Positions 571 through 36,061 are shown, counted from the first letter of the stretch. The stretch is 64,000 bases of DNA from Berkelbacteria bacterium GW2011_GWE1_39_12 (GCA_001029735.1 CP011213.1:848298-912297), one strand, 5' to 3'. Translations and numbers: made by a program. Notes: generated by a model not told the origin, from the letters alone.

Positions 571-585
571 TAACAGGAGTACCAT

Positions 586-972
586 ATGGCCCGTATTGCC
601 GGAGTAAACATCCCAGACAACAAACATGTAGAATATTCACTACCCTATATCAATGGGGTTGGTCTTTCGTTAGCTAAGAAAATCTGTGCTCAAGCAAACG
701 TGAAGTGCGGCACCAAAGTTTCCGATCTCACCACAACTGAAATTGACCGAATTCGCGAAGTTATCGATAAAAATTACAAGGTTGAAGGCGATTTGAAAAT
801 GGAAATCGCTCAAAATATTAAACGCTTAAAAGCAATCAGTTCATACCGCGGTTTAAGACACATGCGTAATTTGCCGGTTCACGGCCAACGCACTAAGACA
901 AATGCTCGCACAAAACGCGGCAAGAAAGTCACTGTTGGATCAGGCCGCAAGAAATCGGCTGAAAAGACATAA
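586..972 (+). CDS. rpsM: 30S ribosomal protein S13
   Basis: [10 protein letters not shown]...YRGLRH...; AGGAG RBS; conserved alpha-operon position. Confidence 0.95.
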
Positions 973-7654: not shown

Positions 7655-8365
7655 ATGTCATTATCAACTATGCAAGAAATTTTAGTTTTGCTCGAAGACG
7701 AAAAGCAAGTCCCTATGTACCGTCTGAATCGATGGGGAAGACCGGCTCGTGGGGCTTTAGCCAAGATGAAAAGTTTAGGCTATGTAACAAAAATTAAAGA
7801 CGGCGATGAGGACTTTTATAAAATCACTGAAAAAGGTGAAGCTTTTTTTGATAAATCTTTAGCACCTTTGAAAGACAATGCCAAATGGGATATGAAATGG
7901 CGCCTTGTTATGTTTGATATTCCTGAAACTGAACGAGGAAATCGTGATAAATTACGAAGAGCATTGACTGATATTGGCCTTGGCATTCTTCAAGCCAGCG
8001 TCTGGATTTCATCTATTGATATAAAAACCGATATCGATAAAATTACTAAGAACTTAAACTTGGGTAGTTCGATTAAATTTTTTGAGGTTACTTCAACTCC
8101 GTCATTAAATAGACAAATAATTAACAAAGCATGGAATTTGCCAGAAATTAATCTCTCGTTAGAACGTTTTATTAAAGAATCAGAGAGGGCACTCAAAGGG
8201 ATGGGAAAGGGTAACGGAGATCGCTATAACGCAAAGAAACTAATTTTTGAGTATGCTACTATACTAAAAAAAGACCCAAAGCTGCCTCTGGAATTTGTAG
8301 AACAAGATGAACTCAGAAAAAGTGCGAGAGAAACTTATCTTAAACTAAGAAAGCGTATTGTTTAA
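7655..8365 (+). CDS. PaaX-like family regulator (winged-helix N-domain + PaaX_C-like domain)
   Basis: Motif ...WDMKWRLVMFDIPETERGNRDKLRRALTDIGLGILQASVWIS... resembles the PaaX family. Assignment by pattern only. Confidence 0.55.
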   Translation: MSLSTMQEILVLLEDEKQVPMYRLNRWGRPARGALAKMKSLGYVTKIKDGDEDFYKITEKGEAFFDKSLAPLKDNAKWDMKWRLVMFDIPETERGNRDKLRRALTDIGLGILQASVWISSIDIKTDIDKITKNLNLGSSIKFFEVTSTPSLNRQIINKAWNLPEINLSLERFIKESERALKGMGKGNGDRYNAKKLIFEYATILKKDPKLPLEFVEQDELRKSARETYLKLRKRIV

Positions 8366-14149: not shown

Positions 14150-14644
14150 TTAAGTGATTTTATAGTAAACTTCTTTAACTAGTCTGGCATCATCTAAGGC
14201 GTTGTGCTGAATAAATTCACCTTTAATACCGAGTTTTTTAATATACTCTTTTTGATTCTCGTAATATTTATCAACGTCCAATCCTTTAACTACCATCAAC
14301 GTAGCAAGATCGATTGGCGGCCAACCATACGGAATATCATTTTCGCCAAAAAGTTTATGTAGATAAACCACATCGAATTGGTTAACAAAGGCCACTAGTA
14401 TTGGTTTACTGTCGCCAATAAACTCCTGAATCTTTTTGACAGCAAGCTCTTTGGAAATTTTTTCCTGTTTTAAAGTGGGCAGGATATTTTCTTTTACCCA
14501 TTCATTTGTTGGGCCGCTATAATCGATCTCGAAATATAGTTCTTCGCCTGTATCTTTAATAAAGCCAGCCGACAAGATCTCGCCGACATTTGGATTGAGA
14601 GAACTGAATTCCGTATCAAAAAAAATTAAATTTTCTTTGATCAT
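14150..14644 (-). CDS. DEDDh-type 3'-5' exonuclease (DnaQ/oligoribonuclease-like)
   Basis: ...IFFDTEFSSL... and ...HNALDDARL... motifs. Confidence 0.7.
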   Translation of the reverse strand: MIKENLIFFDTEFSSLNPNVGEILSAGFIKDTGEELYFEIDYSGPTNEWVKENILPTLKQEKISKELAVKKIQEFIGDSKPILVAFVNQFDVVYLHKLFGENDIPYGWPPIDLATLMVVKGLDVDKYYENQKEYIKKLGIKGEFIQHNALDDARLVKEVYYKIT

Positions 14645-15468
14645 TTCTTTTCTACATTAATTGCGCCGTCTGGACAGATTTGCATACATTTTCCGCAACC
14701 TATACACTTTTCCATATCGACAATCGGCATAGGGGTTCCTAAAAAGTTTAAATCCTTCGCAAAGGTAATAGCCTTAACCGGACAACTTAGTATACAAAGA
14801 GAGCAGCCCTTACAGTATTCTGGGAATCTTGTCCATTTAACTTTGTCATTTTCGAAACTTCTAACGGTTTCATCTGGACTTTTACCCGTCAAATGGTCAG
14901 AGCTTTCATAATTTTGCGCAAATTCAGCACCCATTTGCAGAGCTGAATTATTAAGCTCTTTTAGCTCAGGCTTTATCTTAATTTTAGCTGCTAATTCCAT
15001 CAAAACAGTATCCTGAAAATCTTGAAAACTTATATCTTTCAGCTGTGCTGACAAAACACCTAGAATAATAATGTTGGCAACTTTGGTTGAAAGTTTTTCG
15101 GAAGCAATGTTTTTAGCTGGTACAGCAACAAATCGTTTAATTTCAGCCTTTAATTCGTTAATATCTTTTTCGTAAATTTCTGCACTATCATAAATTACCA
15201 AAGAATTATCTGAAATAAAATTTTTGATTGTTTCGCACGATCTACTAGATAAAGTAACCACAAAATCAGCCTTTGAAAATCTAGGGTAGGGGATTGGCCG
15301 GCTGCTAACTTGAATATATGCAAGTGAAACACCGCCACGCTGTTCAACCCCAAAAGAAGGCAAGTATGAAACATTTTTCCCGGATTTTTTGGCGGCCTTC
15401 GTTAATATTTTGGCGATAGTTTGAACACCTTGTCCACCTTCTCCTGCTATGATAATTTTAGCTGGCAT
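14641..15468 (-). CDS. 2-oxoacid:ferredoxin oxidoreductase gamma subunit fused to delta (2x[4Fe-4S] ferredoxin) subunit
   Basis: N-terminal gamma domain (...IIIAGEGGQGVQT...) and C-terminal CxxCxxCxxxCP x2 ferredoxin motifs. Confidence 0.85.
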   Translation of the reverse strand: MPAKIIIAGEGGQGVQTIAKILTKAAKKSGKNVSYLPSFGVEQRGGVSLAYIQVSSRPIPYPRFSKADFVVTLSSRSCETIKNFISDNSLVIYDSAEIYEKDINELKAEIKRFVAVPAKNIASEKLSTKVANIIILGVLSAQLKDISFQDFQDTVLMELAAKIKIKPELKELNNSALQMGAEFAQNYESSDHLTGKSPDETVRSFENDKVKWTRFPEYCKGCSLCILSCPVKAITFAKDLNFLGTPMPIVDMEKCIGCGKCMQICPDGAINVEKK

Positions 15469-15490
15469 TTATTTTCCTATCTAAAATTTG

Positions 15491-16237
15491 TTAAGCTAAT
15501 TTTTGCGGGCATTTGAATTCTCCTAACGGATAAACTTTTGTCATTTCTTTTTCACTAAAATCTAATGATTGCAAAGCGTCTGTATGCCAGTTAACTGGAC
15601 ACATTGAAATTATTTCTATAAAACTAAATCCGCGACCGTCAATTTGGTTCTGAAGCGCTTTGCGTATTTTAGTTTTACAATCAGCTATGTCAGTCGAAAT
15701 TGTTCTTGCGATATAGGAACCTTCTTGTGCGATTTCCGCCAACATCTCAGGCCCATGAATAGGTTTGCCGACTTTTTGCCAGTCCCTACCATTGGGCGCC
15801 GTTGTGGCTTTTTGCCCAACCAAAGTAGTCGGGGCCATTTGTCCGCCAGTCATGGCATAATTGGCATTGTTAATTAGTATTGCCGTAATCGGATCGTCGC
15901 GCATTGCTGCATTAATTAAATGCTGAGCACCAATTGCATAGCCGCCGCCATCACCCATAAAGGCAATAGTAATCGCCGATGGCTTAGCCAATTTAAACCC
16001 GACCATCGTTGGGACCACGCGTCCGTGATGAGTCTGAATAGTATCTATTTCAAACATATCCCAGGTAAGGAGTGAACAACCAATGTCACAGGCATAAACG
16101 GTTTTATCGGCAATTTGTAACTCGTCTATCACAAAACCAAGATTTTTTAAGGCTAAAGATTGGCCGCACCCAGGACAAAACTTATGAGGTTTTGAGGATT
16201 TCTTCCATGATTTTGGAAAGTTATTGTTTTCAGCCAT
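15491..16237 (-). CDS. 2-oxoacid:ferredoxin oxidoreductase beta (TPP-binding) subunit
   Basis: ...CPGCG...GDGG...TPP-binding pattern; overlaps the alpha-subunit gene by 8 nt. Confidence 0.9.
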   Translation of the reverse strand: MAENNNFPKSWKKSSKPHKFCPGCGQSLALKNLGFVIDELQIADKTVYACDIGCSLLTWDMFEIDTIQTHHGRVVPTMVGFKLAKPSAITIAFMGDGGGYAIGAQHLINAAMRDDPITAILINNANYAMTGGQMAPTTLVGQKATTAPNGRDWQKVGKPIHGPEMLAEIAQEGSYIARTISTDIADCKTKIRKALQNQIDGRGFSFIEIISMCPVNWHTDALQSLDFSEKEMTKVYPLGEFKCPQKLA

Positions 16238-17300
16238 TCATCTCCTTTAAAAAATCTTTAACTCTCTCAACTATTTCATCTGGATTGATGCCGAGGGCCG
16301 GTTTTTTAATTGCCACCATTGGAATATTCTCGCCATAAAGATTTTCTTTGACCATTCTTTCAAATTGACCCAATGATGACTCAATAACAACAATTAACTT
16401 TTTTTTCTGAACAACTGATCGAAGAGTTTCAGAGGGAAAAGGATTAAGAGTGATTGGCCTAAATAAACCAACTTTTTCATCTTCACTTTTTAATATATCG
16501 ATCGCACATTTTGCGGAAATAGCTATATTACCATGAGCAACAATTACGATCTCGGCCCCCAAGGTTTGATAGTCATCGAACTCGACAATTTCGGATGTAA
16601 AACCATCGAAGGCCATCTTATGCTTCATCAGCAAGGTATTGAGCTCTGTTTCTAAATTATATGTATTTCTTAAATTTACACTACCTGAACTGTTATCCTC
16701 ACCAAGCAAATACGGTGCAGAAGAAACTCGTTCAATCTTTCTTTCTTCCAAACTATAAGTTTCGACTTCCGTAAGAGTCTTTGCGGAATATCCATCACCC
16801 AACACAAAAGCAGGGAAACGATACCTCCAAGCAGTATTAAAGGCTTTAATTGCATAATCGTACATTTCTTGCGGATTTCCAACTGAATAAACAATCCTCA
16901 AGCCTTCGCCATTACCACCAAAACATGTTAGGTTTAATTCTTGTTGCGAATATATAACTGTGCCTGTGGACGGACCACCGCGCTGATTAATAAAAACCAC
17001 AGTCGGCAGTCTCATACTTTCGGCCATAACAAGGGCATCTTGCATTAAAACATTACCTGGACCAGCCGTTGCCGAAAAAGTCTTTAGACCTGCCAAGACG
17101 CCACCAATCATAGAAAAACCTGCGGACATTTCGTCTTCAGTTTGTAAAAAGTTGAGGTTTGAATTTTTTGCTGCTTCTTCCGCCCAATTTTCCAAAATTT
17201 CGGTCGTTGGCGTAATAGGATAGCCAGTCATCATCTGGGCACCGCTTGCTAATGCGCCCTTTACGATTGCCTGATTACCGGTTAACAATTCCTTATTCAT
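16230..17300 (-). CDS. 2-oxoacid:ferredoxin oxidoreductase alpha subunit
   Basis: 356 aa, ...LTGNQAIVKGALASGAQMMTGYPITPTTEILE... POR/KOR alpha N-domain. Confidence 0.9.
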   Translation of the reverse strand: MNKELLTGNQAIVKGALASGAQMMTGYPITPTTEILENWAEEAAKNSNLNFLQTEDEMSAGFSMIGGVLAGLKTFSATAGPGNVLMQDALVMAESMRLPTVVFINQRGGPSTGTVIYSQQELNLTCFGGNGEGLRIVYSVGNPQEMYDYAIKAFNTAWRYRFPAFVLGDGYSAKTLTEVETYSLEERKIERVSSAPYLLGEDNSSGSVNLRNTYNLETELNTLLMKHKMAFDGFTSEIVEFDDYQTLGAEIVIVAHGNIAISAKCAIDILKSEDEKVGLFRPITLNPFPSETLRSVVQKKKLIVVIESSLGQFERMVKENLYGENIPMVAIKKPALGINPDEIVERVKDFLKEMNG

Positions 17301-17347: not shown

Positions 17348-17372
17348 AAATTCCGCGATCAGCTTGCTGATC
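17348..17372 (-). promoter_or_regulatory. hairpin (GAUCAGC-aa-GCUGAUC, overlapping acd stop codon) + GCGGAAUUU element upstream of porA
   Basis: Minus strand: GATCAGCAAGCTGATC GCGGAATTT, 43 nt upstream of the porA ATG. Confidence 0.4.
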
Positions 17373-19350
17373 TATACCTTGCGTCAACGCAAATGGCTCC
17401 ACCACTTGTCATTTTAACCGGATTCAAATCAAGCTCAATGATATTTGGAAAGTCGGTCATAATTTGACAAACTTCGATAATTATATTTTTGATACTCGAG
17501 AGATCGAAATTTTCTTTAATTAAAATTCTACCTATCTTCGTTTCCTTAATCATCTCCTCAAGATCATACTCTGTCAAGGGCATAATTTTTGTAGAAATAT
17601 CATCAATATCTTCAGTAAAAACACCGCCCCAGCCAAATGTAACGACCGTACCAAGTTTTTCTTCACGCTTTGCCCCTATGATTACTTCGAACGGAGAGTT
17701 GACCATTCTTTGAATCAAAACTGGGTAACCGACTTTTTCTACAGACTGCTTTAGATATGATTCACTTTGTACATCTAAAACGACTTTTCCGGCCTTAAAT
17801 TTATGTACAAACTTTTTGGAAATACATTTTACCGCTAATGGAAAGCCGATTCTTCCGGCGATTTTCATAACAACGTCGATATTTGTGGCTATCCCAGAAG
17901 GGGGGATGGGTATGTTATAATTCTCGAGAAGCTCCAAGGCGTCGATTTCTGGAATAGGACAGTTTTGAGAAGCGGTCATCTCGATAAATGATTTTGGATG
18001 AGAATTTTTTTCTTGATATTTAGTAACTTTAGCAATAGCTCTAACTGCATCTTCCGGCTCCTCAAAAAACGGAACCTTTTCTTTTCTGAGTATTTCAATT
18101 CCTTTTTTGACCATTTTATCACCGAGAAAAGACGCGACGATCACTTTGTTACTGGTTTTATATTTGGCTAAGACTTTAGCTGTTTCTTCAACCTCTGTCA
18201 TGGTTTGAGGTGTTAGCAATACCAATATTGATGAAATACTATCTTCTCCAATAAGGGCTCTTAAGCCTATTTCATAATCTTTAGCCAAGGCTTCGCCGGC
18301 CAAATCAAGCGGGTTCGAAATGGAACCAACTGGCGGAAGAGATTTTTTAAGTATACTGATGGTTTTTTCAGAAAGCGGCGGCATACGCAAACCAATTTTA
18401 CTGGCAACATCGGTACTTAAAATACCAGGCCCGCCCGCATTAGTTAATATAGCTAAATCTTTTTTATTTACCGCAGGTTCAGTGGCAAAAATTTGTAATA
18501 GATTGAGCATCTCTTTAATACTCTTGGCAACAATTAAATTACCTTGACTAAAAATCGCTTGGTCAATTTTTTCGGAAGTCACCATTGCCGCCGTGTGAGA
18601 AAAAGCGGCTACTGCGCCTTGCTTAGTAGTACCACCTTTCAAAATGATAATTGGCTTTTTTTCCGAAACTTTTCTAGCAACTTCAAAAAATCTTTTTGGA
18701 TTCGCAATATTTTCTAAATAAAGAGCGATAATCTTAGTTTCTTTATCTTCGCCAAGATATTCAATAATCTCTGATTCTTCTAGATCAGCCTTATTTCCTA
18801 AACTAATAAATTTTGAAAATCCAAACTCGTATGATTCGGCCATGTCAAGCAAGGCTACACCTAAAGCTCCCGATTGAAAAACCGCTGACACACTGCCTCT
18901 GGTAAGGCTTGGAGCAGCAAAGGTCGCATTTAAGTTACATTCACTGCTTATAATGCCAAGGCAATTCGGCCCGACGAGTCGTAGGGGAGAGGTTTTAATA
19001 ATAACATCTTTAATTTCTTCCTGAAGAATTTTTCCTTTTTCACCGATTTCCGAAAAACCTGCCGAGATTACCACTGCATAGCTAATATTTGCTGCCACAC
19101 ATTCTTGTAATACTTCCGGCACAATGTTCGCAGGAACCACGATAATTGCCAAATCGATTGTCTCGTTAATATCTTTTACTGTCCGGAAAGTTTCTAGACC
19201 TAGTATTTCATTAGCCGTCGGATTAATTGGAAAAATTTTACCTTTGTAACCATTGTTAATTATATTACCCAATACTTGGTAACCAAGTTTTTCTTTGTGC
19301 GGCGACGCACCAATAACTGCAATATTTCCTGGATTAAATAGTTTTTCCAC
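17359..19350 (-). CDS. acetate--CoA ligase (ADP-forming), fused alpha/beta (ACD)
   Basis: 663 aa with CoA-binding N-domain (...IAVIGASPHKEKLGYQV...), succinyl-CoA-synthetase-like flavodoxin domain and ATP-grasp C-domain. Confidence 0.9.
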   Translation of the reverse strand: MEKLFNPGNIAVIGASPHKEKLGYQVLGNIINNGYKGKIFPINPTANEILGLETFRTVKDINETIDLAIIVVPANIVPEVLQECVAANISYAVVISAGFSEIGEKGKILQEEIKDVIIKTSPLRLVGPNCLGIISSECNLNATFAAPSLTRGSVSAVFQSGALGVALLDMAESYEFGFSKFISLGNKADLEESEIIEYLGEDKETKIIALYLENIANPKRFFEVARKVSEKKPIIILKGGTTKQGAVAAFSHTAAMVTSEKIDQAIFSQGNLIVAKSIKEMLNLLQIFATEPAVNKKDLAILTNAGGPGILSTDVASKIGLRMPPLSEKTISILKKSLPPVGSISNPLDLAGEALAKDYEIGLRALIGEDSISSILVLLTPQTMTEVEETAKVLAKYKTSNKVIVASFLGDKMVKKGIEILRKEKVPFFEEPEDAVRAIAKVTKYQEKNSHPKSFIEMTASQNCPIPEIDALELLENYNIPIPPSGIATNIDVVMKIAGRIGFPLAVKCISKKFVHKFKAGKVVLDVQSESYLKQSVEKVGYPVLIQRMVNSPFEVIIGAKREEKLGTVVTFGWGGVFTEDIDDISTKIMPLTEYDLEEMIKETKIGRILIKENFDLSSIKNIIIEVCQIMTDFPNIIELDLNPVKMTSGGAICVDARYRSAS

Positions 19351-19352
19351 AA

Positions 19353-20966
19353 TTACTCCAATCTATTCAGCAGCGAATGTCCTGTCATTTGCGCTGGTTT
19401 AGGTATTTCTAAAAGTTGTAAAATTGTCGGCGCGATATCTGCTAAACTGTCGGTTGCTGAAATAATTTTGCTCAAAGCATTTGGTCCATACGAAAGCGAT
19501 GTTCTGATTAAATCTTTTTTTGCGTCATTTTTTACCATAATAAACGGCACAGGATTTAACGTGTGCATTGTCTCCCTCTCTCCAACATCACTTTGATTTA
19601 TATTAACCATTTGTTCCGCATTACCATGATCTGCTGTAATAATGGTCACCCCGCCAACCGATCTATTTGCTTTCACAATCTGACCTACTTGTTCATCCAA
19701 AGACTGGACTGCTTGACCAACTGCAATGATATTCCCTGTATGAGCAATCATGTCTACATTAGCAAAATTCAACACAATTAAGTCATATTTTCTTGATTTG
19801 ATAGCCGAAAGTGTCGCCGAAGTAATTTGTCTCGAAGACATTTCTGGCTTTAAATCATACGAAGCAACCTTTGGCGACGAAATTATCTTCCTTTCTTCAC
19901 CAGGATAAGCTTCTTCTTGACCACCATTTAAAAAGTAGGTAACATGGGCCATTTTTTCTGATTCAGCAATTTTTAACTGTTTGCCATTACTTTTTGAGAC
20001 AACTTCAGAAAGATTATTGGCGTAAATTTCATCTGGAAAAGCAACTTTAGCCGGCAGATCTTTTTGATAATTTGTAAAACCGCAGAAATATAAATTTTCA
20101 ACTTTTTTTGGTCTAAAGAAAAAAGTTTTAAATTTAGAATCAAGAAAAACTTTTGCCAATTGGCGAGCGCGATCCTCTCTAAAGTTAAAGAAAATAACAG
20201 CATCACCAGCTTTGATAGGATTAATTTTTCCGTCTTTATCTTTGATAAGCGTCGGCTCGATATATTCGTCTGTTAAATTATTCCTATAGCTCTCAGAAAT
20301 CGCGCTTTCAATTTTATCGGAAATTTTACCATTTCCTTCAGTTAGGGCAAGATAATATTTTTTAATTTTATCCCAGTTCTCATCTCGGTCCATGGCGGTA
20401 TTTCTTCCGCAAACACTGCCAAATTGACCAATCTTAACGTCATCCATTTTTACGCGAATTTTTTCAATAAAATTCAAAGCCTGGGTTGGTCCAGTATCAG
20501 TTCCGTCAGTAATTGCATCAATAAATACCCGGTCAAAATCTTGTCGGTGAGCCATTTCGAGTAAAGCGAGTAAATGCGAGATATCGGAATGCACGCCACC
20601 GTTAGAAATCATACCGATCAAGTGAACATTGCTATTATTTTGTTTTGCCCAAGCAAATGCTCCAGCTAATTGCTGGTTTTTGTAAAATGTTCGCCCAATT
20701 ATTTCTTGATTAATACGAGTATGAGGACTTTTAACAGACCGTCCAGCGCCAATCATTAAATGGCCCAAGCGCGACTCGCCGACGACATTGCCATATTCGA
20801 TTGCCCCAAGTGCTTGCAGAATCTTGTGGGGATAATTGCGCCAAAGATTATCAATATTTTTCGGATTATTCATGACTAAAGCATTACCACCCCAAGAAGG
20901 TGATAAGCCCCAACCATCTAATATCATTAAAACTACAGGTCTATTCTTCTGCATTTGCCCCTCCAA
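19353..20966 (-). CDS. gpmI: 2,3-bisphosphoglycerate-independent phosphoglycerate mutase paralog 1 (most divergent)
   Basis: ...LMILDGWGLSP..., ...GESRLGHLMIGAGR..., ...ITADHGNAEQM..., ...DMIAHTG... iPGM/alkaline-phosphatase-superfamily motifs. Confidence 0.85.
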   Translation of the reverse strand: MEGQMQKNRPVVLMILDGWGLSPSWGGNALVMNNPKNIDNLWRNYPHKILQALGAIEYGNVVGESRLGHLMIGAGRSVKSPHTRINQEIIGRTFYKNQQLAGAFAWAKQNNSNVHLIGMISNGGVHSDISHLLALLEMAHRQDFDRVFIDAITDGTDTGPTQALNFIEKIRVKMDDVKIGQFGSVCGRNTAMDRDENWDKIKKYYLALTEGNGKISDKIESAISESYRNNLTDEYIEPTLIKDKDGKINPIKAGDAVIFFNFREDRARQLAKVFLDSKFKTFFFRPKKVENLYFCGFTNYQKDLPAKVAFPDEIYANNLSEVVSKSNGKQLKIAESEKMAHVTYFLNGGQEEAYPGEERKIISSPKVASYDLKPEMSSRQITSATLSAIKSRKYDLIVLNFANVDMIAHTGNIIAVGQAVQSLDEQVGQIVKANRSVGGVTIITADHGNAEQMVNINQSDVGERETMHTLNPVPFIMVKNDAKKDLIRTSLSYGPNALSKIISATDSLADIAPTILQLLEIPKPAQMTGHSLLNRLE

Positions 20967-20971
20967 CCAAT

Positions 20972-22525
20972 TTAACTAATCAGACTTTCCCCAGTCATTT
21001 CCATCGGTTTTTGCAAATCCATAATTTGCAATACTGTTGGTGCAATATCGGAAAGTTTCAACGTTTGATCACCAACTGCTTGTCTTAGTGGTCTTTGAAA
21101 ATTCGGGTCTTTAGAAATCATCATAAACGGCACTGGGCTAGCAGTATGCTCGGTGTAATTTTCACCCGTATTTGGATTCAGCATCTGTTCCGCATTGCCA
21201 TGATCAGCCGTAATTAATAAGACAACATCTTTATCGATACTTCTACTTACTATTTTACCAATAAGTTCGTCTAATTTCTCGCAAGCCCTTATTGCAGCTT
21301 TGATATTTCCAGTATGTCCAACCATATCGGCGTTCGCAAAATTACAGACTATAAAATCATATTTTCCAATTGCCCCCATGACTTTGTCAGCTACGTCATC
21401 TGCTGCCATCTCTGGCTTAAGATCGAAAGTTGCCACTTTTGGCGAATGTACCAAAATACGATCTTCTCCTGGAAAAGGAGCTTCACGACTACCATTAAAA
21501 AAGAAAGTAACATGGGCGTATTTTTCAGTTTCTGCAATATGAAGTTGCTTTAATCCCGCATCTGAAATCACTTTGGCCAAAGGATTATTGATATCATGGC
21601 GATGGAAAACCGGTTTTACTAGATTACCATCTGCATATTCGTCCAAGTAGGCGAAAGAGGCAAAGTAAATATTTTGCAATTTCTTCTTTCGATCAAAGCC
21701 TTTAAAATTATGAGTAACCAAGCTTTCCGTTAATTCTCTGGTTCGTTCTGCTCTAAAATTGAAAAATATTATAGAATCGTTGTCAGCGATCGGAACAAAA
21801 GGACTTTCCGGCTTATTAATCGCCGTTGGCAAAATAAACTCATCGGTTTTATTCTGTCTATAATTTTCAGAAATAGCTTTTTGAACGCTCAATGATTGTG
21901 GACCGATCCCTTGAGTTAAGATATCATATGATTTTTGAATTCTATCCCAATGTTTATCTCTATCCATCGCCCAATAACGCCCAGAGACAGATTCTACTTT
22001 ACCAATACCAATTTCCTTAATTTTATCTTCTAGTTCCGATAAGTAAGATAGGGCTTTCATCGGATCAGTATCTCTGCCGTCAGTAATCATATGAATGTAA
22101 GCATTTTGCACTTGTTGTTTTTTTGCCATTTCCAATAAAGCATAGAGGTGATCAATGTGCGAGTGGATCCCGCCGTCAGAAACCAACCCGATCAAATGCA
22201 AATTGGATTGATTTTGTTTAACTTGAGTAAAAGCACCAAGTAAAACTTCGTTGCTGAAAAAAGATCCATCGTTAATTGCAGTAGTAATGCCCGGCAGATT
22301 TTGAAAAACAATTTGGCCACTACCGATGTTTAAATGACCGACCTCTGAATTTCCGTTTTCATGCCTTGGCAAACCAACTGATTCTTCGGCTGCTTTTAAT
22401 GCGGTATGAGGATACTTACGCCAAATTTCATCTAATAACGGTGTTTCGGACATTTCGATTGCATTGCCACCCCATGCCGGCGCCAAGCCCCAACCATCCA
22501 AAATCACCAATACAACTTTTTTCAT
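20972..22525 (-). CDS. gpmI: 2,3-bisphosphoglycerate-independent phosphoglycerate mutase paralog 2
   Basis: ...VILDGWGLAP..., ...NGNSEVGHLNIGSG..., ...ITADHGNAEQM..., ...DMVGHTG... Confidence 0.9.
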   Translation of the reverse strand: MKKVVLVILDGWGLAPAWGGNAIEMSETPLLDEIWRKYPHTALKAAEESVGLPRHENGNSEVGHLNIGSGQIVFQNLPGITTAINDGSFFSNEVLLGAFTQVKQNQSNLHLIGLVSDGGIHSHIDHLYALLEMAKKQQVQNAYIHMITDGRDTDPMKALSYLSELEDKIKEIGIGKVESVSGRYWAMDRDKHWDRIQKSYDILTQGIGPQSLSVQKAISENYRQNKTDEFILPTAINKPESPFVPIADNDSIIFFNFRAERTRELTESLVTHNFKGFDRKKKLQNIYFASFAYLDEYADGNLVKPVFHRHDINNPLAKVISDAGLKQLHIAETEKYAHVTFFFNGSREAPFPGEDRILVHSPKVATFDLKPEMAADDVADKVMGAIGKYDFIVCNFANADMVGHTGNIKAAIRACEKLDELIGKIVSRSIDKDVVLLITADHGNAEQMLNPNTGENYTEHTASPVPFMMISKDPNFQRPLRQAVGDQTLKLSDIAPTVLQIMDLQKPMEMTGESLIS

Positions 22526-22556
22526 TATCTAGTATTCCTTTGTTTAATTAGAATTA

Positions 22557-24098
22557 TTATATTACTTGACTTAAATCCTGTCCTGTTACTATTTCTGGCT
22601 GATTTAAGCCCAAGCGATTAATTACAGTTGCAGTCACATCGGCCAGAACCCCAATTGGTTCTGTTGTAGCACTGGCTAATTTGGTATCCAAATTAACAGT
22701 CACAGGCCTTTGATTAATTTTTTCCTGAAAACAAAGCAATAAAGGAACAGGATTAATTGTATGTTCCTTGTCAACTTCGCCGGTTTGTAAATTGATCATC
22801 TGCTCGGCATTGCCATGATCGGCTGTCACCAACAAGTCACCACCAGCATTCAAAACCGCTTGAGCTAATTTACCCAAACAATTATCAACTTTTGCCACTG
22901 CTTTTTGCGTTGCCGCCAAAATACCTGTATGGCCAACCATATCAGCATTAGCAAAGTTTAAAACAGTAAAATTTGGTTTATTTTTCTGGAAATATTCGAT
23001 AAATTTAGCGGTTAATTCATCGGCCGACATTTCTGGCTTTAAATCGTAAGTAGCAACTTTTGGCGATGGCACCACAATCCGCTCTTCACCGGCAAACGGA
23101 GCTTCCCAGCCACCATTAAAGAAATAGGTAACATGGGCGTATTTTTCTGTTTCAGCAATATGCAATTGAGTTAATTTAGCACTACTTAAAACCATTGCCA
23201 ACTGGTCCGTAACTTTATCAGCTAAAAAGGCAACTTTAACTAGCGGCGTTGGTTCGTGACCATAACTGGTAAATGACGCAAAATAAATTTCTGGAATATT
23301 TATTAGTTCATCAGAAATTTGTCTAGCCCTATCCGAACGAAAATTATAAAAGATGACAGCATCTTTTGACTTTATTCTGGCAGTATTACCGATTTTAGTG
23401 GGCTCGATAAATTCATCAGTTTTTCCGGCGGCATAGGAATCATTGATTGCTTTTTCTATCGTTTCAGCAGTCGGCGAGCTATCTGATGTTAAAATATTGA
23501 ATGCTTTTCGAGTACGTTCAACGCGTTTATCACGATCCATACCATAAAAACGGCCCATGACCGAGGCAATTTTGCCTACTCCGGTTTGAGTAATTTTTGC
23601 TTGGAGTTTTGGCAAATCACTTAAAATGGTTTTTGGAGCGGTGTCACGGCCATCGGTTATTACATGGATATAAACCTCGGTAAAATTTTGCAATTTTGCC
23701 AAATCAATTAAAGCCAATAAATGGTTAATATGCGCATGTACTCCACCCGAAGAACAAAGACCCAAAAGGTGGACTTTGGTGTTATTCTGCTTGGCATAAT
23801 TAAATGCGTCAACTAATTCCTTATTAACAAAAAAGGTTTTATCGGCAATGCTTTTATCAATTCGAGGTAAATCTTGCATAACAACACGACCGGTGCCTAG
23901 ATTTAAATGGCCAACTTCAGAATTTCCCATTTCGCCCCACTCCAAACCAACTTCTTCACCAGAAGCATGAAGGCTAGTACTAGGAAACATCGATAGTAAT
24001 TTATCATAATTTGGCGTCGGCGTTGAAAAAACGGCGTTTCCTTTTGTCTCCACGCTCAGACCCCAACCATCTAATATTGCTAAAACTAAAGGCCTCAA
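22557..24098 (-). CDS. gpmI: 2,3-bisphosphoglycerate-independent phosphoglycerate mutase paralog 3
   Basis: ...AILDGWGLS..., ...MGNSEVGHLNLGTGR..., ...VTADHGNAEQM..., ...DMVGHTG... Confidence 0.9.
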   Translation of the reverse strand: MRPLVLAILDGWGLSVETKGNAVFSTPTPNYDKLLSMFPSTSLHASGEEVGLEWGEMGNSEVGHLNLGTGRVVMQDLPRIDKSIADKTFFVNKELVDAFNYAKQNNTKVHLLGLCSSGGVHAHINHLLALIDLAKLQNFTEVYIHVITDGRDTAPKTILSDLPKLQAKITQTGVGKIASVMGRFYGMDRDKRVERTRKAFNILTSDSSPTAETIEKAINDSYAAGKTDEFIEPTKIGNTARIKSKDAVIFYNFRSDRARQISDELINIPEIYFASFTSYGHEPTPLVKVAFLADKVTDQLAMVLSSAKLTQLHIAETEKYAHVTYFFNGGWEAPFAGEERIVVPSPKVATYDLKPEMSADELTAKFIEYFQKNKPNFTVLNFANADMVGHTGILAATQKAVAKVDNCLGKLAQAVLNAGGDLLVTADHGNAEQMINLQTGEVDKEHTINPVPLLLCFQEKINQRPVTVNLDTKLASATTEPIGVLADVTATVINRLGLNQPEIVTGQDLSQVI

Positions 24099-24126: not shown

Positions 24127-25290
24127 TCATGTTAATTCACTGGCGATCTCTTCCAACCGTTTGTATTTAATCTCCCTTTCGGACGCAAATGGGGCACCAG
24201 CCTTCAGATATTTGGCCGCCGTACCTACGGCCAAGTCTGAAATATATGAATCCATTGTTTCGCCAGATCGATGTGATAGAATATGGACGAAATCTGCTTT
24301 TTTAGCTAAGGAAATAACCTTTAAAGTCTCTGTTAAAGTACCGGTTTGATTCACCTTCACTATCATAGCGTTAGCGGCAAAGTTTTCGATCCCTGCCTCC
24401 AAACGTTCTTTACTTGTAACAAAAAGGTCGTCACCAACTAATAAATAATCCTTGCCTTTACGATCTAATTCAAGCTTTAATTCTGCCCAATGATCTATTT
24501 TGTCTTCAGGTGCTGGATCTTCAATTGAATAGATCGGGAAGTTATCAAGCATATGCAAAATATCTTCATTTGAAATATTGCAGTAATTGGCCGCTATATC
24601 TAATCCGATCATTATATCTTTAGAAACGCTTAATTTTGAAATTTCGATGGCGCTTTGCAATAAATCAATGGCATCTTCGTCATAGTTTAGTTTTGGTGAA
24701 AAACCGCCCTCTAAACCAAGATCGGGCTCTAACCCTTGTGAAGTAATAAGTTCTCTCAATGTGTGCCAGATTTTTTTGCCATGTTCAAGTTTTCCGATGA
24801 CTAATATTTCTTGAAGACAAAGCTTGTTTTTGGCATGCTTTCCACCTTCAATCATCACCATCATCGGAGTAGGTAGCGACGGTTCAATTTCTTCACCACA
24901 AATTCTTGAATACAGTTTATTAATGTACCAGTAAAGAGGCATTTTTTCCGTAAGAGCCGCCACTCTGGAAAGGGCAAGTGAAACACCTAATATTGTGTTT
25001 GCTCCTAAACTTGATTTATCGCCAGTTCCATCCATATCCAACATTAACTGATCGATGCCAAATTGATCTAACGGATCAAGCCCAATAATTTTAGGTTTAA
25101 TAGTTTGATTAATTGTATTCACGGCAATTTCGGGCTTAACCGGAATCGATTCAAAGCTACCAGTCGAAATACCACTCGGAACAGAATCAGTTGCCATTAA
25201 CCCATCGTCCGTAGAAATTTCTACTTCTAAAGTCGGCTCGCCTCGCGAATCGAGAATTTCTCTAGCGTTGACATCGGTTATTTTAGACAA
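24127..25290 (-). CDS. eno: enolase (short, divergent)
   Basis: MSKITDVNAREILDSRGEPTLEVE..., ...SHRSGET... enolase signature; 387 aa. Confidence 0.85.
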   Translation of the reverse strand: MSKITDVNAREILDSRGEPTLEVEISTDDGLMATDSVPSGISTGSFESIPVKPEIAVNTINQTIKPKIIGLDPLDQFGIDQLMLDMDGTGDKSSLGANTILGVSLALSRVAALTEKMPLYWYINKLYSRICGEEIEPSLPTPMMVMIEGGKHAKNKLCLQEILVIGKLEHGKKIWHTLRELITSQGLEPDLGLEGGFSPKLNYDEDAIDLLQSAIEISKLSVSKDIMIGLDIAANYCNISNEDILHMLDNFPIYSIEDPAPEDKIDHWAELKLELDRKGKDYLLVGDDLFVTSKERLEAGIENFAANAMIVKVNQTGTLTETLKVISLAKKADFVHILSHRSGETMDSYISDLAVGTAAKYLKAGAPFASEREIKYKRLEEIASELT

Positions 25291-25319: not shown

Positions 25320-26456
25320 CTATTCTTTAAACGGTTCGTCGGCTAATTTACCCTTCAAAAACTTTATGATTTCCACGGGATTTGGTTCAATATTGTTCAA
25401 GATAGCTAAATAATATGAGATATAATCTCCCAGCATTATCATCTGCAATATTTCGGAAATTTCCGATCCGGACGGTTGGACAAGCAGTGTTTCGTAAGGA
25501 ATTCTTTTTTGCTCTAAAATTTGTGCTGTAATATTTTCACGTAATTTATTTCTCGCGTGGTCATACTTTGACTGTAAAATAATAAAGAAAAGTTTCTGCC
25601 TGATATCAGTAGGGAATTCTAAACCAACTAGGGAATTGTGGTTTAACTCGGGAATCGTTTCATAATAGGACGCGGTTTTTGAATTTTCATTGAATTGACC
25701 TTTGAAACGCCTGGCTACTTCAGTCATAATGCCGGCGCCATAGATTATCGGGAAACGCCCGTTTAATTTCTGGGCTAAAACCTTTGTGATATTTCGTCTC
25801 TCAGGAACCTCAACATCGATCTTTTGCTTTAAAGCGCGAAGCAATAAAACCGCTTCCTTAATATCGTCATCTGTTATTTCGATAATATTTAATTTTTTAA
25901 AAATAGCCAAAATACTTGTTAAGCCATAGCCCAACGCCGCTCGCGGCTGACTGCCATAATGAATTTGATAGTGAAGAGCTCTTTTTTGACTGCCAATGGA
26001 ATATATTCTACCACCAGTTGAAATAGTGATAAGTTTTTCGGTTTTACCAACCGCTTGAGAAAAAGCATTAATTGTTTCTTCGGTTTCACCAGAATACGAC
26101 ACGGCGATAACTAAAGTATTTTTATCTACCCAGCCTGGAATATCATAATCTCGTAAAATGACAACCGGAATCTGTGATTTGGTCGCCATTTGAGCAACAA
26201 TACCGCCACCTTGAGCCGAACCGCCCATACCTAGAATTAAAATTGATTTTGCGTTTATATAAGGAGTTGGCAAGGCGATATTTTTCCAATCGTCCCAACA
26301 TTTTTCCACTTGATCAGGAAAGTCCTGAATATTTCCCAGTATATTTTCTTCATCAAGTTTTTTCATTGCTTGTATATTATCTAAATTAGCCACTTGGCTC
26401 CTTTCGATTGATTGTTTAAAAATGCCACAATTTTGAAAAACTGCTTTTGTCTTCAT
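25320..26456 (-). CDS. bifunctional phosphoglucose/phosphomannose isomerase (SIS-domain, archaeal-type); true start may be the internal Met near 26366
   Basis: ...ILILGMGGSAQGG... and ...VSYSGETEE... SIS motifs; C-terminal PGI/PMI domain. Confidence 0.7.
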   Translation of the reverse strand: MKTKAVFQNCGIFKQSIERSQVANLDNIQAMKKLDEENILGNIQDFPDQVEKCWDDWKNIALPTPYINAKSILILGMGGSAQGGGIVAQMATKSQIPVVILRDYDIPGWVDKNTLVIAVSYSGETEETINAFSQAVGKTEKLITISTGGRIYSIGSQKRALHYQIHYGSQPRAALGYGLTSILAIFKKLNIIEITDDDIKEAVLLLRALKQKIDVEVPERRNITKVLAQKLNGRFPIIYGAGIMTEVARRFKGQFNENSKTASYYETIPELNHNSLVGLEFPTDIRQKLFFIILQSKYDHARNKLRENITAQILEQKRIPYETLLVQPSGSEISEILQMIMLGDYISYYLAILNNIEPNPVEIIKFLKGKLADEPFKE

Positions 26457-26650: not shown

Positions 26651-27721
26651 ATGAATATAGAAAATGAAAGTGAAATGCTTCAGCCACCGCAAGAAAAGAA
26701 CATTGAAGAATCTTTACAGGAATACACCAGACAATGTGAGCAAGGTGAATTTGAAATCGTTAATATCAAAGAAGTGATCGTCGACGGCCTGGCTGAAGAC
26801 GAGCGCATCGGCGGTATTACAGCTGCAACCGATGAAGACCAGCGCGCCGCTGAAATTGATGTCTATAATTTTAGTAAATCCGGCAAGAATTTGATCGCTA
26901 GGTTTGATCGTCGTAACCAAAAAATCGGCGCCATAGTTGCGATTTGTGAGCCTTCCGGCGATGGCCACTATCGGCTGATTAAAGGTGCGGAAGTTCTGGA
27001 TAATTGTGAAGATCCGGTCGTAAACCGAGTCTACAACAAAGATATTACTTGCATCGTTAAGACTTTTTCAGATGAAGAAGGTGAAATTCATTGCCACGAA
27101 AATATTTTTTCTTCAAATGGCGATTTAACCAAACGTGAGCTATTGGCCACCGGTCCGATTGATGAAAAAGACATCCGGGCGCAAGAGCTGGACGATCCGA
27201 ATATCGGCCTTTTCCGCCGTCCGAAAGAAGGGGAATACGCGGACGGTCAAATTGGTTGGCAAACTGTCGAAGGGTTTGATAAAATTCAAGACGCACTTGA
27301 CGGTAAAATCGCAATGAAAATCATCAAGAAATTTGCGCCGAATGAGTGGGGCGGCATCAACGATAGTAAAAAATTAAACGACGGCAACATTTTTTATGTT
27401 GGCCACATGGCCGGTTTTGACCGCGACCGAAATGATCCGGAAGCTAAAAAACTATATTACGGCACCTGCGGAATTTTTGATCCGAAAACCGAAGAAATTG
27501 TCAGCTGGAAAATTATATTGGACGAGAAAACAATTCAAGATTTGTTAGCCAAACGTGTCGATGCAAAAAATGAGGAAATCGGTTCAGTTTGTTACATATC
27601 TTCAATTCAAAGTATTGACGAAGAAAAAGGCGAAGTTGCACTTTGCGTCAGTCTTCAAGACACAAAAGGATTTGAAATTACCCTAAAAGTTCCAATTGAA
27701 GAGTTGAAGAAGCGAACATAA
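26651..27721 (+). CDS. hypothetical acidic protein (356 aa), higher-GC islet
   Basis: Long uninterrupted ORF with codon-like periodicity; no recognisable motifs. GC well above the flanking genes. Confidence 0.55.
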   Translation: MNIENESEMLQPPQEKNIEESLQEYTRQCEQGEFEIVNIKEVIVDGLAEDERIGGITAATDEDQRAAEIDVYNFSKSGKNLIARFDRRNQKIGAIVAICEPSGDGHYRLIKGAEVLDNCEDPVVNRVYNKDITCIVKTFSDEEGEIHCHENIFSSNGDLTKRELLATGPIDEKDIRAQELDDPNIGLFRRPKEGEYADGQIGWQTVEGFDKIQDALDGKIAMKIIKKFAPNEWGGINDSKKLNDGNIFYVGHMAGFDRDRNDPEAKKLYYGTCGIFDPKTEEIVSWKIILDEKTIQDLLAKRVDAKNEEIGSVCYISSIQSIDEEKGEVALCVSLQDTKGFEITLKVPIEELKKRT

Positions 27722-36042: not shown

Positions 36043-36061
36043 AATACCAGTGGGAGTAATT

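What the first reader, a model, noticed from the sequence alone, without database searches (positions are those of the whole stretch)
19353..24098. Tandem triplication of cofactor-independent phosphoglycerate mutase with one strongly diverged copy
Three adjacent, same-strand ~515-537-aa paralogs all retain the iPGM metal/phosphoserine motifs (ILDGWG, TADHGNAE, DM[VI][GA]HTG). They are far from identical, so the duplications are old. Copy 1 (19353-20966) has diverged around the phosphoserine loop (GESRLGHLMIGAGRSV versus MGNSEVGHLN in copies 2 and 3) and in its N-terminus. Three iPGMs in a reduced genome is unexpected. It suggests sub- or neofunctionalisation, for example another phosphomutase or phosphatase activity within the alkaline-phosphatase superfamily.
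Basis: partly seen in the sequence, partly recalled or inferred. Interest (0 to 1): 0.55.

Follow-up and report, generated by a model that had tools for sequence, protein, structure and literature searches.

The report
Three old phosphoglycerate mutase genes, one remodelled
A tiny (<1 Mb) Berkelbacteria genome keeps three ancient, side-by-side copies of the glycolytic enzyme phosphoglycerate mutase in its sugar-to-acetate operon; the third copy belongs to an undescribed, conserved subfamily that keeps the catalytic machinery but has a rebuilt substrate pocket, so it probably does a different, still unknown job.

Summary
Three intact minus-strand iPGM genes lie in tandem: copy 3 at 22557-24098, copy 2 at 20972-22525 and copy 1 at 19353-20954. 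They share 42-49% amino-acid identity and only short patches of nucleotide similarity. Each has its own RBS, and all score above the TIGR01307 cut-off. They sit in an operon ordered PGI, enolase, iPGM x3, ADP-forming acetyl-CoA synthetase, OFOR.

The array is not a local oddity. Eight other Berkelbacteria loci carry the same three genes in the same order. Each position forms its own clade with bootstrap 99-100.

Copies 2 and 3 are canonical at every catalytic and substrate-binding residue. Copy 1 keeps Ser62, all metal ligands, H123, D154, R185, R191, R261, R264 and K336. It has lost the substrate-binding Arg153 (to T/V/I). It also carries N61 to D/E, E63 to R/H and H147 to D. These four positions are at least 91% conserved in 87-99 canonical iPGMs and are fixed differently in all 74 clade members.

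That clade nests in a wider CPR clade of last-position paralogues. No paper describing this was found.

The most likely reading is an active phosphotransferase with altered specificity. Its substrate is unknown. I class it as a new variant of a known kind, of moderate interest.

The parts
25320..26456 (-). First gene of the operon: bifunctional phosphoglucose/phosphomannose isomerase (378 aa).
   Evidence: PF10432 and SIS domains. NF006426 scores 330.6 bits against a cut-off of 295. It occupies the same position in L002-L007, L088-L092, L095 and L096.
24127..25290 (-). Enolase, short form (387 aa).
   Evidence: Enolase_N and Enolase_C domains. TIGR01060 scores 351 bits against a cut-off of 300.
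22557..24098 (-). iPGM copy 3 (operon position 1), 513 aa. Canonical active site. TTG start 4 nt after the RBS AAGGAGG.
   Evidence: TIGR01307 scores 582 bits. It is canonical at Bst positions 12, 61-68, 123, 147, 153, 154, 185, 191, 261, 264, 336, 403, 407, 444, 445 and 462. The position-1 clade has bootstrap 100. RBS and start codon are shown.
20972..22525 (-). iPGM copy 2 (operon position 2), 517 aa. Canonical active site. ATG start.
   Evidence: TIGR01307 scores 626 bits. All catalytic and substrate residues are canonical. The position-2 clade has bootstrap 99-100. The start codon is shown.
19353..20954 (-). iPGM copy 1 (operon position 3), 533 aa from the ATG at 20954. The mechanical ORF runs to the TTG at 20966. 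It is a member of the Berkelbacteria subfamily with the remodelled pocket.
   Evidence: TIGR01307 scores 537 bits. It is 100% identical to P0001. The RBS GGAGGGG precedes the ATG. The AlphaFold2 model has pLDDT 86 and pTM 0.83, and its best PDB matches are iPGMs 1EJJ, 1O98 and 4MY4. The clade of 74 has bootstrap 100.
20754..20780 (-). Nucleophile loop of copy 1, GESRLGHLM, where canonical iPGMs have GNSEVGHLN. Ser65 of the 537-aa ORF corresponds to Bst Ser62. The changes are N61 to E, E63 to R, V64 to L and N68 to M.
   Evidence: Translation. Mapping to 1EJJ. In the clade of 74, position 61 is D in 36, E in 35 and N in 3. Position 63 is R in 66 and H in 8. Canonical iPGMs have N and E in 99 of 99.
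20496..20522 (-). Transferase-domain strand of copy 1, IDAITDGTD, where canonical iPGMs have IHxxxDGRD. H147 is replaced by D and the substrate-binding R153 by T. D154 is kept.
   Evidence: Translation. In the clade of 74, position 147 is D in 71, and position 153 is T in 38, V in 20 and I in 16. Canonical iPGMs have H in 91 and R in 97 of 99.
17359..19350 (-). ADP-forming acetyl-CoA synthetase (acetate--CoA ligase, fused alpha and beta), 663 aa. Its start codon lies 2 nt after the copy 1 stop.
   Evidence: Pfam domains CoA_binding, Succ_CoA_lig and ATP-grasp_5. TIGR02717 scores 503 bits, below its cut-off of 567. It is syntenic in L002-L005, L007, L091 and L092.
14641..17300 (-). 2-oxoacid:ferredoxin oxidoreductase. 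Alpha subunit at 16230-17300, beta (TPP) at 15491-16237, gamma/delta (POR plus 2x[4Fe-4S]) at 14641-15468.
   Evidence: POR_N and PFOR_II; TPP_enzyme_C; POR and Fer4.

Best explanation
SHOWN. The window comes from a Candidatus Berkelbacteria (CPR/Patescibacteria) genome. Three ancient, positionally orthologous iPGM paralogues are encoded in one operon ordered PGI, enolase, iPGM, iPGM, iPGM, ADP-forming acetyl-CoA synthetase, 2-oxoacid:ferredoxin oxidoreductase.

INFERRED from residue conservation. Copies 3 and 2 are ordinary Mn-dependent phosphoglycerate mutases that interconvert 3PG and 2PG through a phosphoserine intermediate.

Copy 1 is the Berkelbacteria form of a wider CPR 'last-position' iPGM-like paralogue. 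It keeps the whole phosphoryl-transfer core: the Ser nucleophile, seven metal ligands, and the phosphate-binding R261 and K336. It also keeps most glycerate-binding residues. Its pocket is nevertheless remodelled and fixed by selection: Arg153 is lost, Glu63 next to the nucleophile is replaced by Arg or His, Asn61 by Asp or Glu, and His147 by Asp.

INFERRED. Copy 1 is therefore a catalytically active phosphoserine-forming phosphotransferase (mutase or phosphatase). Its specificity or kinetics differ from the canonical 3PG/2PG mutase, and its substrate is most probably still a small phospho-acid of lower glycolysis. This non-redundant role explains why a genome under 1 Mb retains it. The actual substrate is not known.
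For: Organism. Copy 1 is 100% identical to P0001, named Candidatus Berkelbacteria, on a 915 kb contig. L001 is Ca. Berkelbacteria RBG_13_40_8, 0.84 Mb.

Conserved triple array with the same gene order. It occurs in L001-L005, L007, L091 and L092 with a copy-1-signature last gene. It also occurs in L089, L095 and L096 with a wider-clade last gene.

Positional orthology. The position-1 clade has bootstrap 100, the position-2 clade 99-100, and the copy-1 clade of 74 sequences 100. The wider last-position clade has bootstrap 96-100.

Signature residues. N61, E63, H147 and R153 are 91-100% conserved in 87-99 canonical iPGMs. They are replaced in the whole clade of 74 and are canonical in copies 2 and 3.

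Core retained. D12, S62, H66, H123, D154, R185, R191, R261, R264, K336, D403, H407, D444, H445 and H462 are all present in copy 1.

Purifying selection. There are about 80 invariant columns among 31 clade members down to 47% identity. Mean pairwise identity among the same 7 genomes is 0.53 for position 3 against 0.61-0.62 for positions 1 and 2.

Direction of drift. Across the 50%-identity representatives of the subfamily, the metal, Ser, R185, R261 and K336 positions are invariant, while H123, R153, D154, R191 and R264 vary.

Glu63 is an active-site residue. Its C. elegans equivalent, E87, sits next to the nucleophile S86 and the metals and hydrogen-bonds ligands there (PMC8113725).

Arg153 as a substrate ligand rests on my own knowledge of the UniProt/HAMAP GpmI annotation (binding site 153-154) and of Jedrzejas et al. 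2000. I could not read the paper.

Fold. AlphaFold2 gives pLDDT 86, and the top PDB matches are iPGMs.

Rarity. iPGM paralogues are rare in bacteria (PMC2964296; controls).
Against: There are no biochemical data for any member. Only one direct substrate ligand, R153, is lost in the window's copy.

Arg at position 63 could functionally replace it, in which case copy 1 would remain a plain 3PG/2PG mutase.

In the wider last-position clade R153 is sometimes retained (14 of 29). Its loss is therefore not a defining, ancient feature.

Copy 1 still scores well above the iPGM equivalog cut-off, and overall it is only modestly more diverged than copies 2 and 3.

I could not measure distances in the model, because no coordinates are returned. 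The spatial relation of residues 61, 63, 147 and 153 is therefore unverified.

The NJ backbone is unresolved, so the order of the duplications is unknown.
Confidence: 0.55

Rival explanations
1. All three are ordinary 3PG/2PG mutase isozymes. This would be subfunctionalisation or dosage without a new reaction, for example different metal (Mn, Co, Zn), pH or kinetic optima. Under this view the substitutions in copy 1 compensate each other, with Arg63 standing in for Arg153 and Asp147 or Asp/Glu61 rebalancing charge.
For: All three pass the TIGR01307 equivalog cut-off. Copy 1 keeps 7 of the 8 substrate-contacting residues and every catalytic residue. The coupled changes E63 to R and R153 to T/V/I look like a relocated positive charge. 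The genes are co-operonic with enolase.
Against: Three co-transcribed isozymes for a single near-equilibrium reaction are hard to justify in genomes of 0.8-0.9 Mb, yet the array has been retained across deep divergence, with orthologues down to 47% identity. They share one operon, so differential regulation is unlikely. In derived members of the copy-1 subfamily further glycerate-binding residues are lost: H123 to N, R191 to S/K/N, and R264 to N/Y/A/P/K. That pattern is not expected for a conserved PGM. In the wider clade R153 is lost without any E63 to R change, so compensation is not required.
Confidence: 0.28
2. A specific sub-case of the best explanation. Copy 1 acts on phosphoenolpyruvate as a PEP phosphatase or a PEP-dependent phosphotransferase. 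It would supply the PEP-to-pyruvate step, the only step between 3PG and acetate that the operon does not visibly encode.
For: In every triple locus with a downstream acetate module, the last-position paralogue sits between the enolase/iPGM genes and the pyruvate-consuming and acetate-forming genes. Those are ACD plus OFOR, or PTAC plus AckA plus OFOR in L089. PEP is a close analogue of 2PG. The residues retained are the phosphate and carboxylate binders, while the repositioning residues are relaxed. Pyruvate kinase was found in only about a third of CPR genomes, and the authors allow for undetected substitute enzymes (PMC7304191).
Against: This is purely contextual. I could not check whether this genome has pyk, ppdK or ppsA, because only 64 kb of about 915 kb is available. 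Gene order need not follow pathway order. A PEP phosphatase would waste a high-energy phosphate. L006, L088, L090 and L097 have the paralogue without the downstream acetate module.
Confidence: 0.08
3. Another specific sub-case. Copy 1 has become a sugar-phosphate mutase (pentose, glucose or mannose 1-P to 5/6-P) that feeds PGI/PMI and the pentose-phosphate shunt.
For: An acidic residue before the nucleophile ([D/E]-S) resembles phosphopentomutase and alkaline phosphatase; this comparison rests on my own knowledge. The operon starts with a bifunctional PGI/PMI. A DUF1861 gene, possibly glycoside-phosphorylase-like, neighbours the operon here and in L004. Phosphopentomutase is the next-best fold match after the iPGMs.
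Against: The arginine-rich carboxylate and phosphate pocket (R185, R191, R261, R264, K336) is retained in the window's copy, which fits an acid rather than a neutral sugar. Phosphopentomutase models score 34 and 28 bits against cut-offs of 254 and 256. The TM-score to PPM is only about 0.35. The DUF1861 neighbour is not conserved in most loci.
Confidence: 0.06
4. Copy 1 is a decaying or non-catalytic copy, either a pseudoenzyme or a regulatory subunit.
For: It evolves somewhat faster than copies 2 and 3. One sub-branch (L007_pos3, P0095, P0097, P0098) has lost H123, R191 and R264.
Against: The ORF is intact with an RBS. The nucleophile and all seven metal ligands are invariant in all full-length members. 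There are about 80 invariant columns across the clade, and the array is retained in at least 9 loci.
Confidence: 0.03
5. The array is an assembly or collapse artefact that created false tandem copies.
For: None.
Against: The copies share 42-49% amino-acid identity and only short nucleotide patches. The same array appears in independent assemblies from NCBI, ENA and JGI.
Confidence: 0.005

Closest known systems
Bacterial-type cofactor-independent phosphoglycerate mutase (GpmI/GpmM; Geobacillus stearothermophilus 1EJJ/1O98; TIGR01307)
   Same: Copy 1 has the same two-domain fold, is 40-42% identical, and keeps the Ser62 nucleophile, the two-metal site and K336/R261 phosphate binding. Its HMM score is above the equivalog cut-off. 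Copies 2 and 3 are ordinary members.
   Different: Copy 1 and its 74-member clade lack the substrate-binding Arg153. They also carry fixed replacements at N61, E63 and H147, which are 91-100% conserved in canonical enzymes.
Duplicate bacterial-type iPGMs described by Foster et al. 2010 (PMC2964296)
   Same: More than one bacterial-type iPGM gene in a single bacterial genome.
   Different: That study found only 4 of 702 genomes with duplicates: one pseudogene, one recent duplicate at 90% similarity and two lateral transfers. PGM paralogues in general went with large genomes. Here there are three ancient copies at 42-49% identity, in tandem in one operon, in genomes under 1 Mb, and syntenic across a class-level lineage.
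Phosphopentomutase (DeoB), same alkaline-phosphatase-superfamily core
   Same: It shares the Metalloenzyme (PF01676) core and a two-metal site with a hydroxyl nucleophile. The nucleophile is preceded by an acidic residue (own knowledge), as in the copy-1 clade.
   Different: It has a different cap domain rather than iPGM_N, and a Thr nucleophile. NCBIfam scores are 28-34 bits against cut-offs of 254-256, and the Foldseek TM-score is about 0.35. Copy 1 is not a member.
Wider CPR 'last-position' iPGM-like paralogue (this work; motif GNSE[IV]GH[ASG]S, residue 153 variable)
   Same: It occupies the same operon position, last in PGI, Eno, iPGM(1-2), X. It forms a clade with the copy-1 group at bootstrap 96-100. 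It shares the derived states A28 to N/S, T334 to S and G482 to A/S.
   Different: It keeps N61 (or has S), E63 and H147. Arg153 is retained in about half of its members.

Membership tests
Bacterial-type iPGM (TIGR01307 / PF06415+PF01676) | Two-domain architecture: a Metalloenzyme phosphatase core with an inserted iPGM_N transferase domain. | tested here: met
   All three copies match PF01676 and PF06415 over their full length. For copy 1, the AlphaFold2 model (pLDDT 86) matches 1EJJ, 1O98 and 4MY4 with TM-scores of 0.76-0.85.
Bacterial-type iPGM (TIGR01307 / PF06415+PF01676) | Score above the curated equivalog cut-off of 330.65 bits. | tested here: met
   Copies 1, 2 and 3 score 537.2, 626.2 and 582.1 bits.
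Bacterial-type iPGM (TIGR01307 / PF06415+PF01676) | Ser62 nucleophile and the metal ligands D12, D403, H407, D444, H445 and H462. | tested here: met
   These residues are present in all three copies and in all full-length relatives.
Bacterial-type iPGM (TIGR01307 / PF06415+PF01676) | Complete set of substrate-contacting residues: H123, R153, D154, R185, R191, R261, R264, K336. | tested here: not met
   Copies 2 and 3 have the complete set. Copy 1 has R153 replaced by T156. Across the clade of 74 the residue is T in 38, V in 20 and I in 16, whereas canonical iPGMs have R in 97 of 99. The role of R153 rests on my own knowledge of the UniProt/HAMAP annotation.
Bacterial-type iPGM (TIGR01307 / PF06415+PF01676) | The family-invariant nucleophile-loop motif G-N-S-E-V-G-H, plus H147. 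| tested here: not met
   Copy 1 has G-E-S-R-L-G-H and D150. N61 and E63 are 99 of 99, and H147 91 of 99, in canonical sequences. Copies 2 and 3 meet this feature.
Bacterial-type iPGM (TIGR01307 / PF06415+PF01676) | Catalysis of the 3PG/2PG interconversion. | not testable with these tools
   This needs an enzyme assay or complementation.
Phosphopentomutase (DeoB; NF009049 / NF003766 / TIGR01696) | Score above the curated cut-off, and a PPM cap domain instead of iPGM_N. | tested here: not met
   Copy 1 scores 33.9 and 28.3 bits against cut-offs of 254 and 256, matching only the C-terminal core. The Foldseek TM-score to PPM is about 0.35.
Archaeal-type iPGM (ApgM; TIGR00306 / NF003104) | Score above the curated cut-off. 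| tested here: not met
   Copy 1 scores 24.9 and 29.3 bits against cut-offs of 320 and 489.

The most novel reading that the evidence does not exclude
The last-position iPGM paralogue of Berkelbacteria and related CPR bacteria is a new enzyme activity recruited from the iPGM scaffold. It would fill one of the 'missing' central-carbon steps of CPR metabolism. The most attractive candidate is PEP to pyruvate, through a phosphoserine enzyme acting as a PEP phosphatase or a PEP:acceptor phosphotransferase. That would explain why the operon encodes every step from 3PG to acetate except this one.
Probability: 0.1. Interest if true: 0.8.

Novelty: new variant of a known kind. Interest (0 to 1): 0.5.

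Why it matters
CPR/Patescibacteria genomes are among the most reduced known, and their central metabolism has unexplained gaps. Pyruvate kinase, PFK and hexokinase are patchy or absent, and Jaffe et al. 2020 explicitly allow for undetected substitute enzymes.

Three iPGM genes have been retained under selection for a very long time in genomes of 0.8-0.9 Mb. [quoted passage not shown] The third gene is therefore hidden functional diversity in the core fermentative operon.

It is cheap to test, because three soluble monomeric enzymes can be expressed in E. coli. A new activity would change metabolic reconstructions for a whole CPR class and add a new specificity to the alkaline-phosphatase superfamily. 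If all three turn out to be plain PGMs, that is a smaller puzzle: why a minimal genome keeps three isozymes.

Tried and rejected
1. The genome-contig scan with the clade alignment A2 was unproductive. It returned mostly canonical iPGMs of unrelated phyla, so it served only as a control set and revealed a few other tandem pairs.

2. I could not document the structural roles of R153, E63, N61 and H147 from Jedrzejas et al. 2000, because the paper is not held. Four full-text searches found no substitute. Only E63 (as C. elegans E87) and K336 could be documented.

3. The AlphaFold2 model could not be used to ask whether Arg66 occupies the space of the lost Arg153. The tool returns no coordinates, so this idea remains untested.

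4. dN/dS was not computed. The closest relatives with DNA available are at most 78% identical at amino-acid level, so synonymous sites are saturated. I used column invariance and relative amino-acid divergence instead.

5. I could not check for pyruvate kinase, PPDK or PEP synthase in this genome, because only 64 kb is available. None occurs among the ORFs of 150 aa or more in the window that I scanned with Pfam (most of them). The supplements of PMC7304191 held as text contain no per-genome enzyme table for Berkelbacteria.

6. Pseudogene and assembly-artefact readings are rejected.

7. Membership in the phosphopentomutase and archaeal iPGM families is rejected on HMM scores.

8. A strict E63R/H147D contact-swap idea is weakened. 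D147 also occurs together with E63 in some canonical representatives, P0132 and P0143.

9. Rfam and tRNA scans found no riboswitch or leader associated with the operon.


Full report
**1. Observation**

The region holds three adjacent minus-strand ORFs: 19353-20966 (537 aa), 20972-22525 (517 aa) and 22557-24098 (513 aa). Copy 3 is transcribed first and copy 1 last.

- All three have the Metalloenzyme core (PF01676) with an inserted iPGM_N domain (PF06415).
- All three exceed the curated TIGR01307 equivalog cut-off of 330.65 bits, scoring 537, 626 and 582 bits.
- Pairwise identities are 47% (copies 1/2), 42-44% (1/3) and 49% (2/3).
- At DNA level only patches of 35-253 nt align, at 67-86% identity. 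An assembly artefact is excluded.
- Each gene has its own Shine-Dalgarno sequence. Copy 3 starts at the TTG at 24098, 4 nt after AAGGAGG. Copy 2 starts at the ATG at 22525.
- The true start of copy 1 is almost certainly the ATG at 20954, after GGAGGGG. That gives the 533-aa protein found in the databases. The TTG at 20966 is only the mechanical ORF start.
- Intergenic gaps are 2-31 nt from PGI through to the acetyl-CoA synthetase, so the genes form an operon.

**2. Context**

The minus-strand operon contains, in order:

- a bifunctional PGI/PMI (25320-26456);
- a short enolase (24127-25290);
- iPGM copies 3, 2 and 1;
- an ADP-forming acetyl-CoA synthetase (17359-19350);
- a three-gene 2-oxoacid:ferredoxin oxidoreductase (14641-17300).

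A small exoribonuclease-like ORF and tRNA-Ala follow. The operon thus encodes lower glycolysis and acetate fermentation.

Copy 1 is 100% identical to a protein named Candidatus Berkelbacteria on a 915 kb contig. The rest of the window is typical CPR housekeeping content.

**3. Relatives**

A search with copy 1 found about 70 clusters at 47-78% identity. Below that, the hits grade into other iPGMs.

Every locus with a copy-1-type gene and enough flank carries the same array: PGI, (Eno), iPGM, iPGM, iPGM, ACD, OFOR. These loci are L001-L005, L007, L091 and L092. The short contigs L093 and L094 are consistent with this. L001 is Ca. Berkelbacteria RBG_13_40_8, 0.84 Mb.

Three further triples have a more distant last gene: L089, L095 and L096. 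In L089, PTAC and acetate kinase replace ACD.

Five loci have a pair made of a canonical iPGM followed by a last-position paralogue: L006, L008, L088, L090 and L097.

Flanking synteny is shared across these loci: sortase, PEGA, MurA and MreB on one side, LeuRS, NusB and RNase III on the other.

As controls, 73 of 80 GTDB iPGM loci and 73 of 80 metagenome iPGM loci had a single iPGM within 7-8 kb either side. Foster et al. 2010 found duplicate bacterial-type iPGMs in 4 of 702 genomes, with PGM paralogues (mostly dPGM) and dPGM/iPGM co-occurrence associated with large genomes (PMC2964296).

**4. Phylogeny**

I built neighbour-joining trees with Kimura-corrected distances and 100 bootstraps, on 132 and 149 sequences. 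They give the following clades:

| Clade | Bootstrap |
|---|---|
| Position 1 (copy 3 type) | 100 |
| Position 2 (copy 2 type) | 99-100 |
| Copy-1 type (74 sequences) | 100 |
| Copy-1 type plus other CPR last-position paralogues | 96-100 |

The three genes are therefore positional orthologues across these genomes. The duplications predate the divergence of the genomes.

The backbone among canonical clades is unresolved. I cannot say whether copies 2 and 3 are sisters, or whether one was acquired laterally.

Copy 1 is only moderately more divergent than its neighbours. Its tree distance to the Geobacillus enzyme is 1.07, against 0.86 and 0.97 for copies 2 and 3.

**5. Active site**

I mapped the sequences onto G. 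stearothermophilus iPGM, 1EJJ.

Copy 1 retains:

- the nucleophile Ser62;
- the metal ligands D12, D403, H407, D444, H445 and H462;
- H66, H123, D154, R185, R191, R261, R264 and K336.

It differs at positions that are 91-100% conserved in 87-99 canonical iPGMs:

| Bst position | Canonical | Copy-1 clade (74) | Window copy 1 |
|---|---|---|---|
| N61 | N 99/99 | D 36, E 35, N 3 | E |
| E63 | E 99/99 | R 66, H 8 | R |
| H147 | H 91/99 | D 71 | D |
| R153 | R 97/99 | T 38, V 20, I 16 | T |

V64 to L, A28 to N, P31 to K, T334 to S and G482 to A also distinguish the clade. Copies 2 and 3 and their orthologues are canonical at all of these positions.

R153 is annotated as a substrate-binding residue (UniProt/HAMAP GpmI, binding site 153-154). 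This is my own knowledge; the primary paper could not be read. The C. elegans equivalent of E63, E87, lies in the active site beside the nucleophile and the metals (PMC8113725). K336 binds the phosphate oxygens (PMC3145672).

A profile search of 1.84 billion representatives found the signature in only 5 of the top 150, so the subfamily is narrow. In its most divergent members H123, D154, R191 and R264 are also replaced. The metal ligands, Ser62, R185, R261 and K336 stay invariant. The same pattern is seen in the L007/P0095/P0097/P0098 branch.

The AlphaFold2 model of copy 1 (pLDDT 86, pTM 0.83) has the iPGM fold. Phosphopentomutases are far behind in the structure search.

**6. Interpretation**

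Shown:

- three real, old, co-operonic iPGM paralogues, conserved as an array in Berkelbacteria;
- a conserved subfamily with an intact phosphoryl-transfer core and a remodelled pocket.

Inferred:

- copies 2 and 3 are the 3PG/2PG mutases;
- copy 1 is an active phosphoserine-forming enzyme with altered specificity or kinetics.

Drift within the subfamily relaxes the glycerate-repositioning residues and never the phosphatase core. This argues for a move away from the mutase reaction, towards a phosphatase or phosphotransferase acting on a related phospho-acid.

The main rival is that the substitutions compensate each other, with Arg63 replacing Arg153, and that all three are PGM isozymes. I give that about 0.28.

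One contextual observation is worth testing. The operon encodes every step from 3PG to acetate except PEP to pyruvate, and the odd paralogue sits at that junction. Pyruvate kinase is reported in only about a third of CPR genomes (PMC7304191). I could not check this genome for pyk or ppdK, so this stays a low-probability idea of about 0.1.

**7. Novelty**

All these proteins are annotated simply as iPGM. Full-text searches found no description of tandem iPGM arrays or of this subfamily in CPR bacteria.

I classify it as a new variant of a known kind, of moderate interest. It is clearly real, under selection and easy to test, but its function is still unknown.

Noticed in passing
window 24127-25290 (-): The enolase is short, at 387 aa against about 430 aa for typical enolases. 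It matches TIGR01060 positions 1-410 of 425 with gaps and scores 351 bits against a cut-off of 300. The same length of 386-400 aa recurs in the related loci, so this looks like a conserved compact CPR form.
   Followed up: partly
window 26651-27721 (+); L004 2019-3053: A DUF1861 (PF08950) gene is divergently transcribed from the PGI end of the operon. It recurs upstream of the operon in L004 but not in most other loci. It is possibly a glycoside hydrolase or phosphorylase-like beta-propeller. Its function is unknown.
   Followed up: partly
L007 9956-11554 (P0097); P0095, P0098; representatives P0122, P0123, P0125: A sub-branch of the copy-1 subfamily has additionally lost H123 (to N), R191 (to S/K/N) and R264 (to N/Y/A/P/K). 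P0123 has also lost D154 (to N). All metal ligands and Ser62 are kept. This is a more extreme departure from a phosphoglycerate pocket.
   Followed up: partly
L011, L017, L018, L051, L077, L052 (GTDB loci): A different kind of tandem iPGM pair follows enolase: one copy of NSEA...D125 type plus one canonical copy. It occurs in Falkowbacteria and Patescibacteria MAGs. It also occurs in MAGs labelled 'uncultured Gammaproteobacteria' or 'Actinomycetota', with GC of 34-51%. Either the labels are doubtful or tandem iPGM duplication happened independently.
   Followed up: no
L089 9648-11368: One triple-iPGM operon has PTAC (phosphate acyltransferase) plus acetate kinase where the others have the ADP-forming acetyl-CoA synthetase. 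The acetate-forming module has been swapped while the iPGM array is conserved.
   Followed up: no
L004 9932-10000; L007 9956-10000: The public gene calls for the copy-1 orthologues P0065 and P0097 are truncated at the N-terminus. The ILDGWG metal-ligand motif is encoded in frame upstream, with no ATG, so these genes probably use a non-canonical start codon.
   Followed up: yes
window 48807-49478 (-); L004 16157-16804: An IS200/Y1-transposase-like gene occurs in the window, and another lies directly downstream of the operon in L004.
   Followed up: no
window 35278-36258 and 36062-37288 (-): A 408-aa sigma-70 ORF overlaps by about 200 nt a 326-aa ORF that has no Pfam match. This may reflect a start-codon or frame problem, or an unusual C-terminal extension of the sigma factor.
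   Followed up: no
window 43597-45081, 50058-50654, 55881-57089 (+): The reduced genome keeps a RelA/SpoT homologue, LexA and a DinB/ImuB-type Y-family polymerase. It therefore retains stringent-response and SOS-type functions.
   Followed up: no
window 514-618 (+): An Rfam Alpha_RBS (RF00140) element lies upstream of the rpsD and rpoA genes. Its score of 38.6 bits is just above the gathering threshold of 38.
   Followed up: no
window 7655-8365 (+); L004 21077-21512: A protein with a PaaX_M (Cas2-like central) domain lies next to the RNase III gene. A similar gene sits in the same relative position in L004.
   Followed up: no
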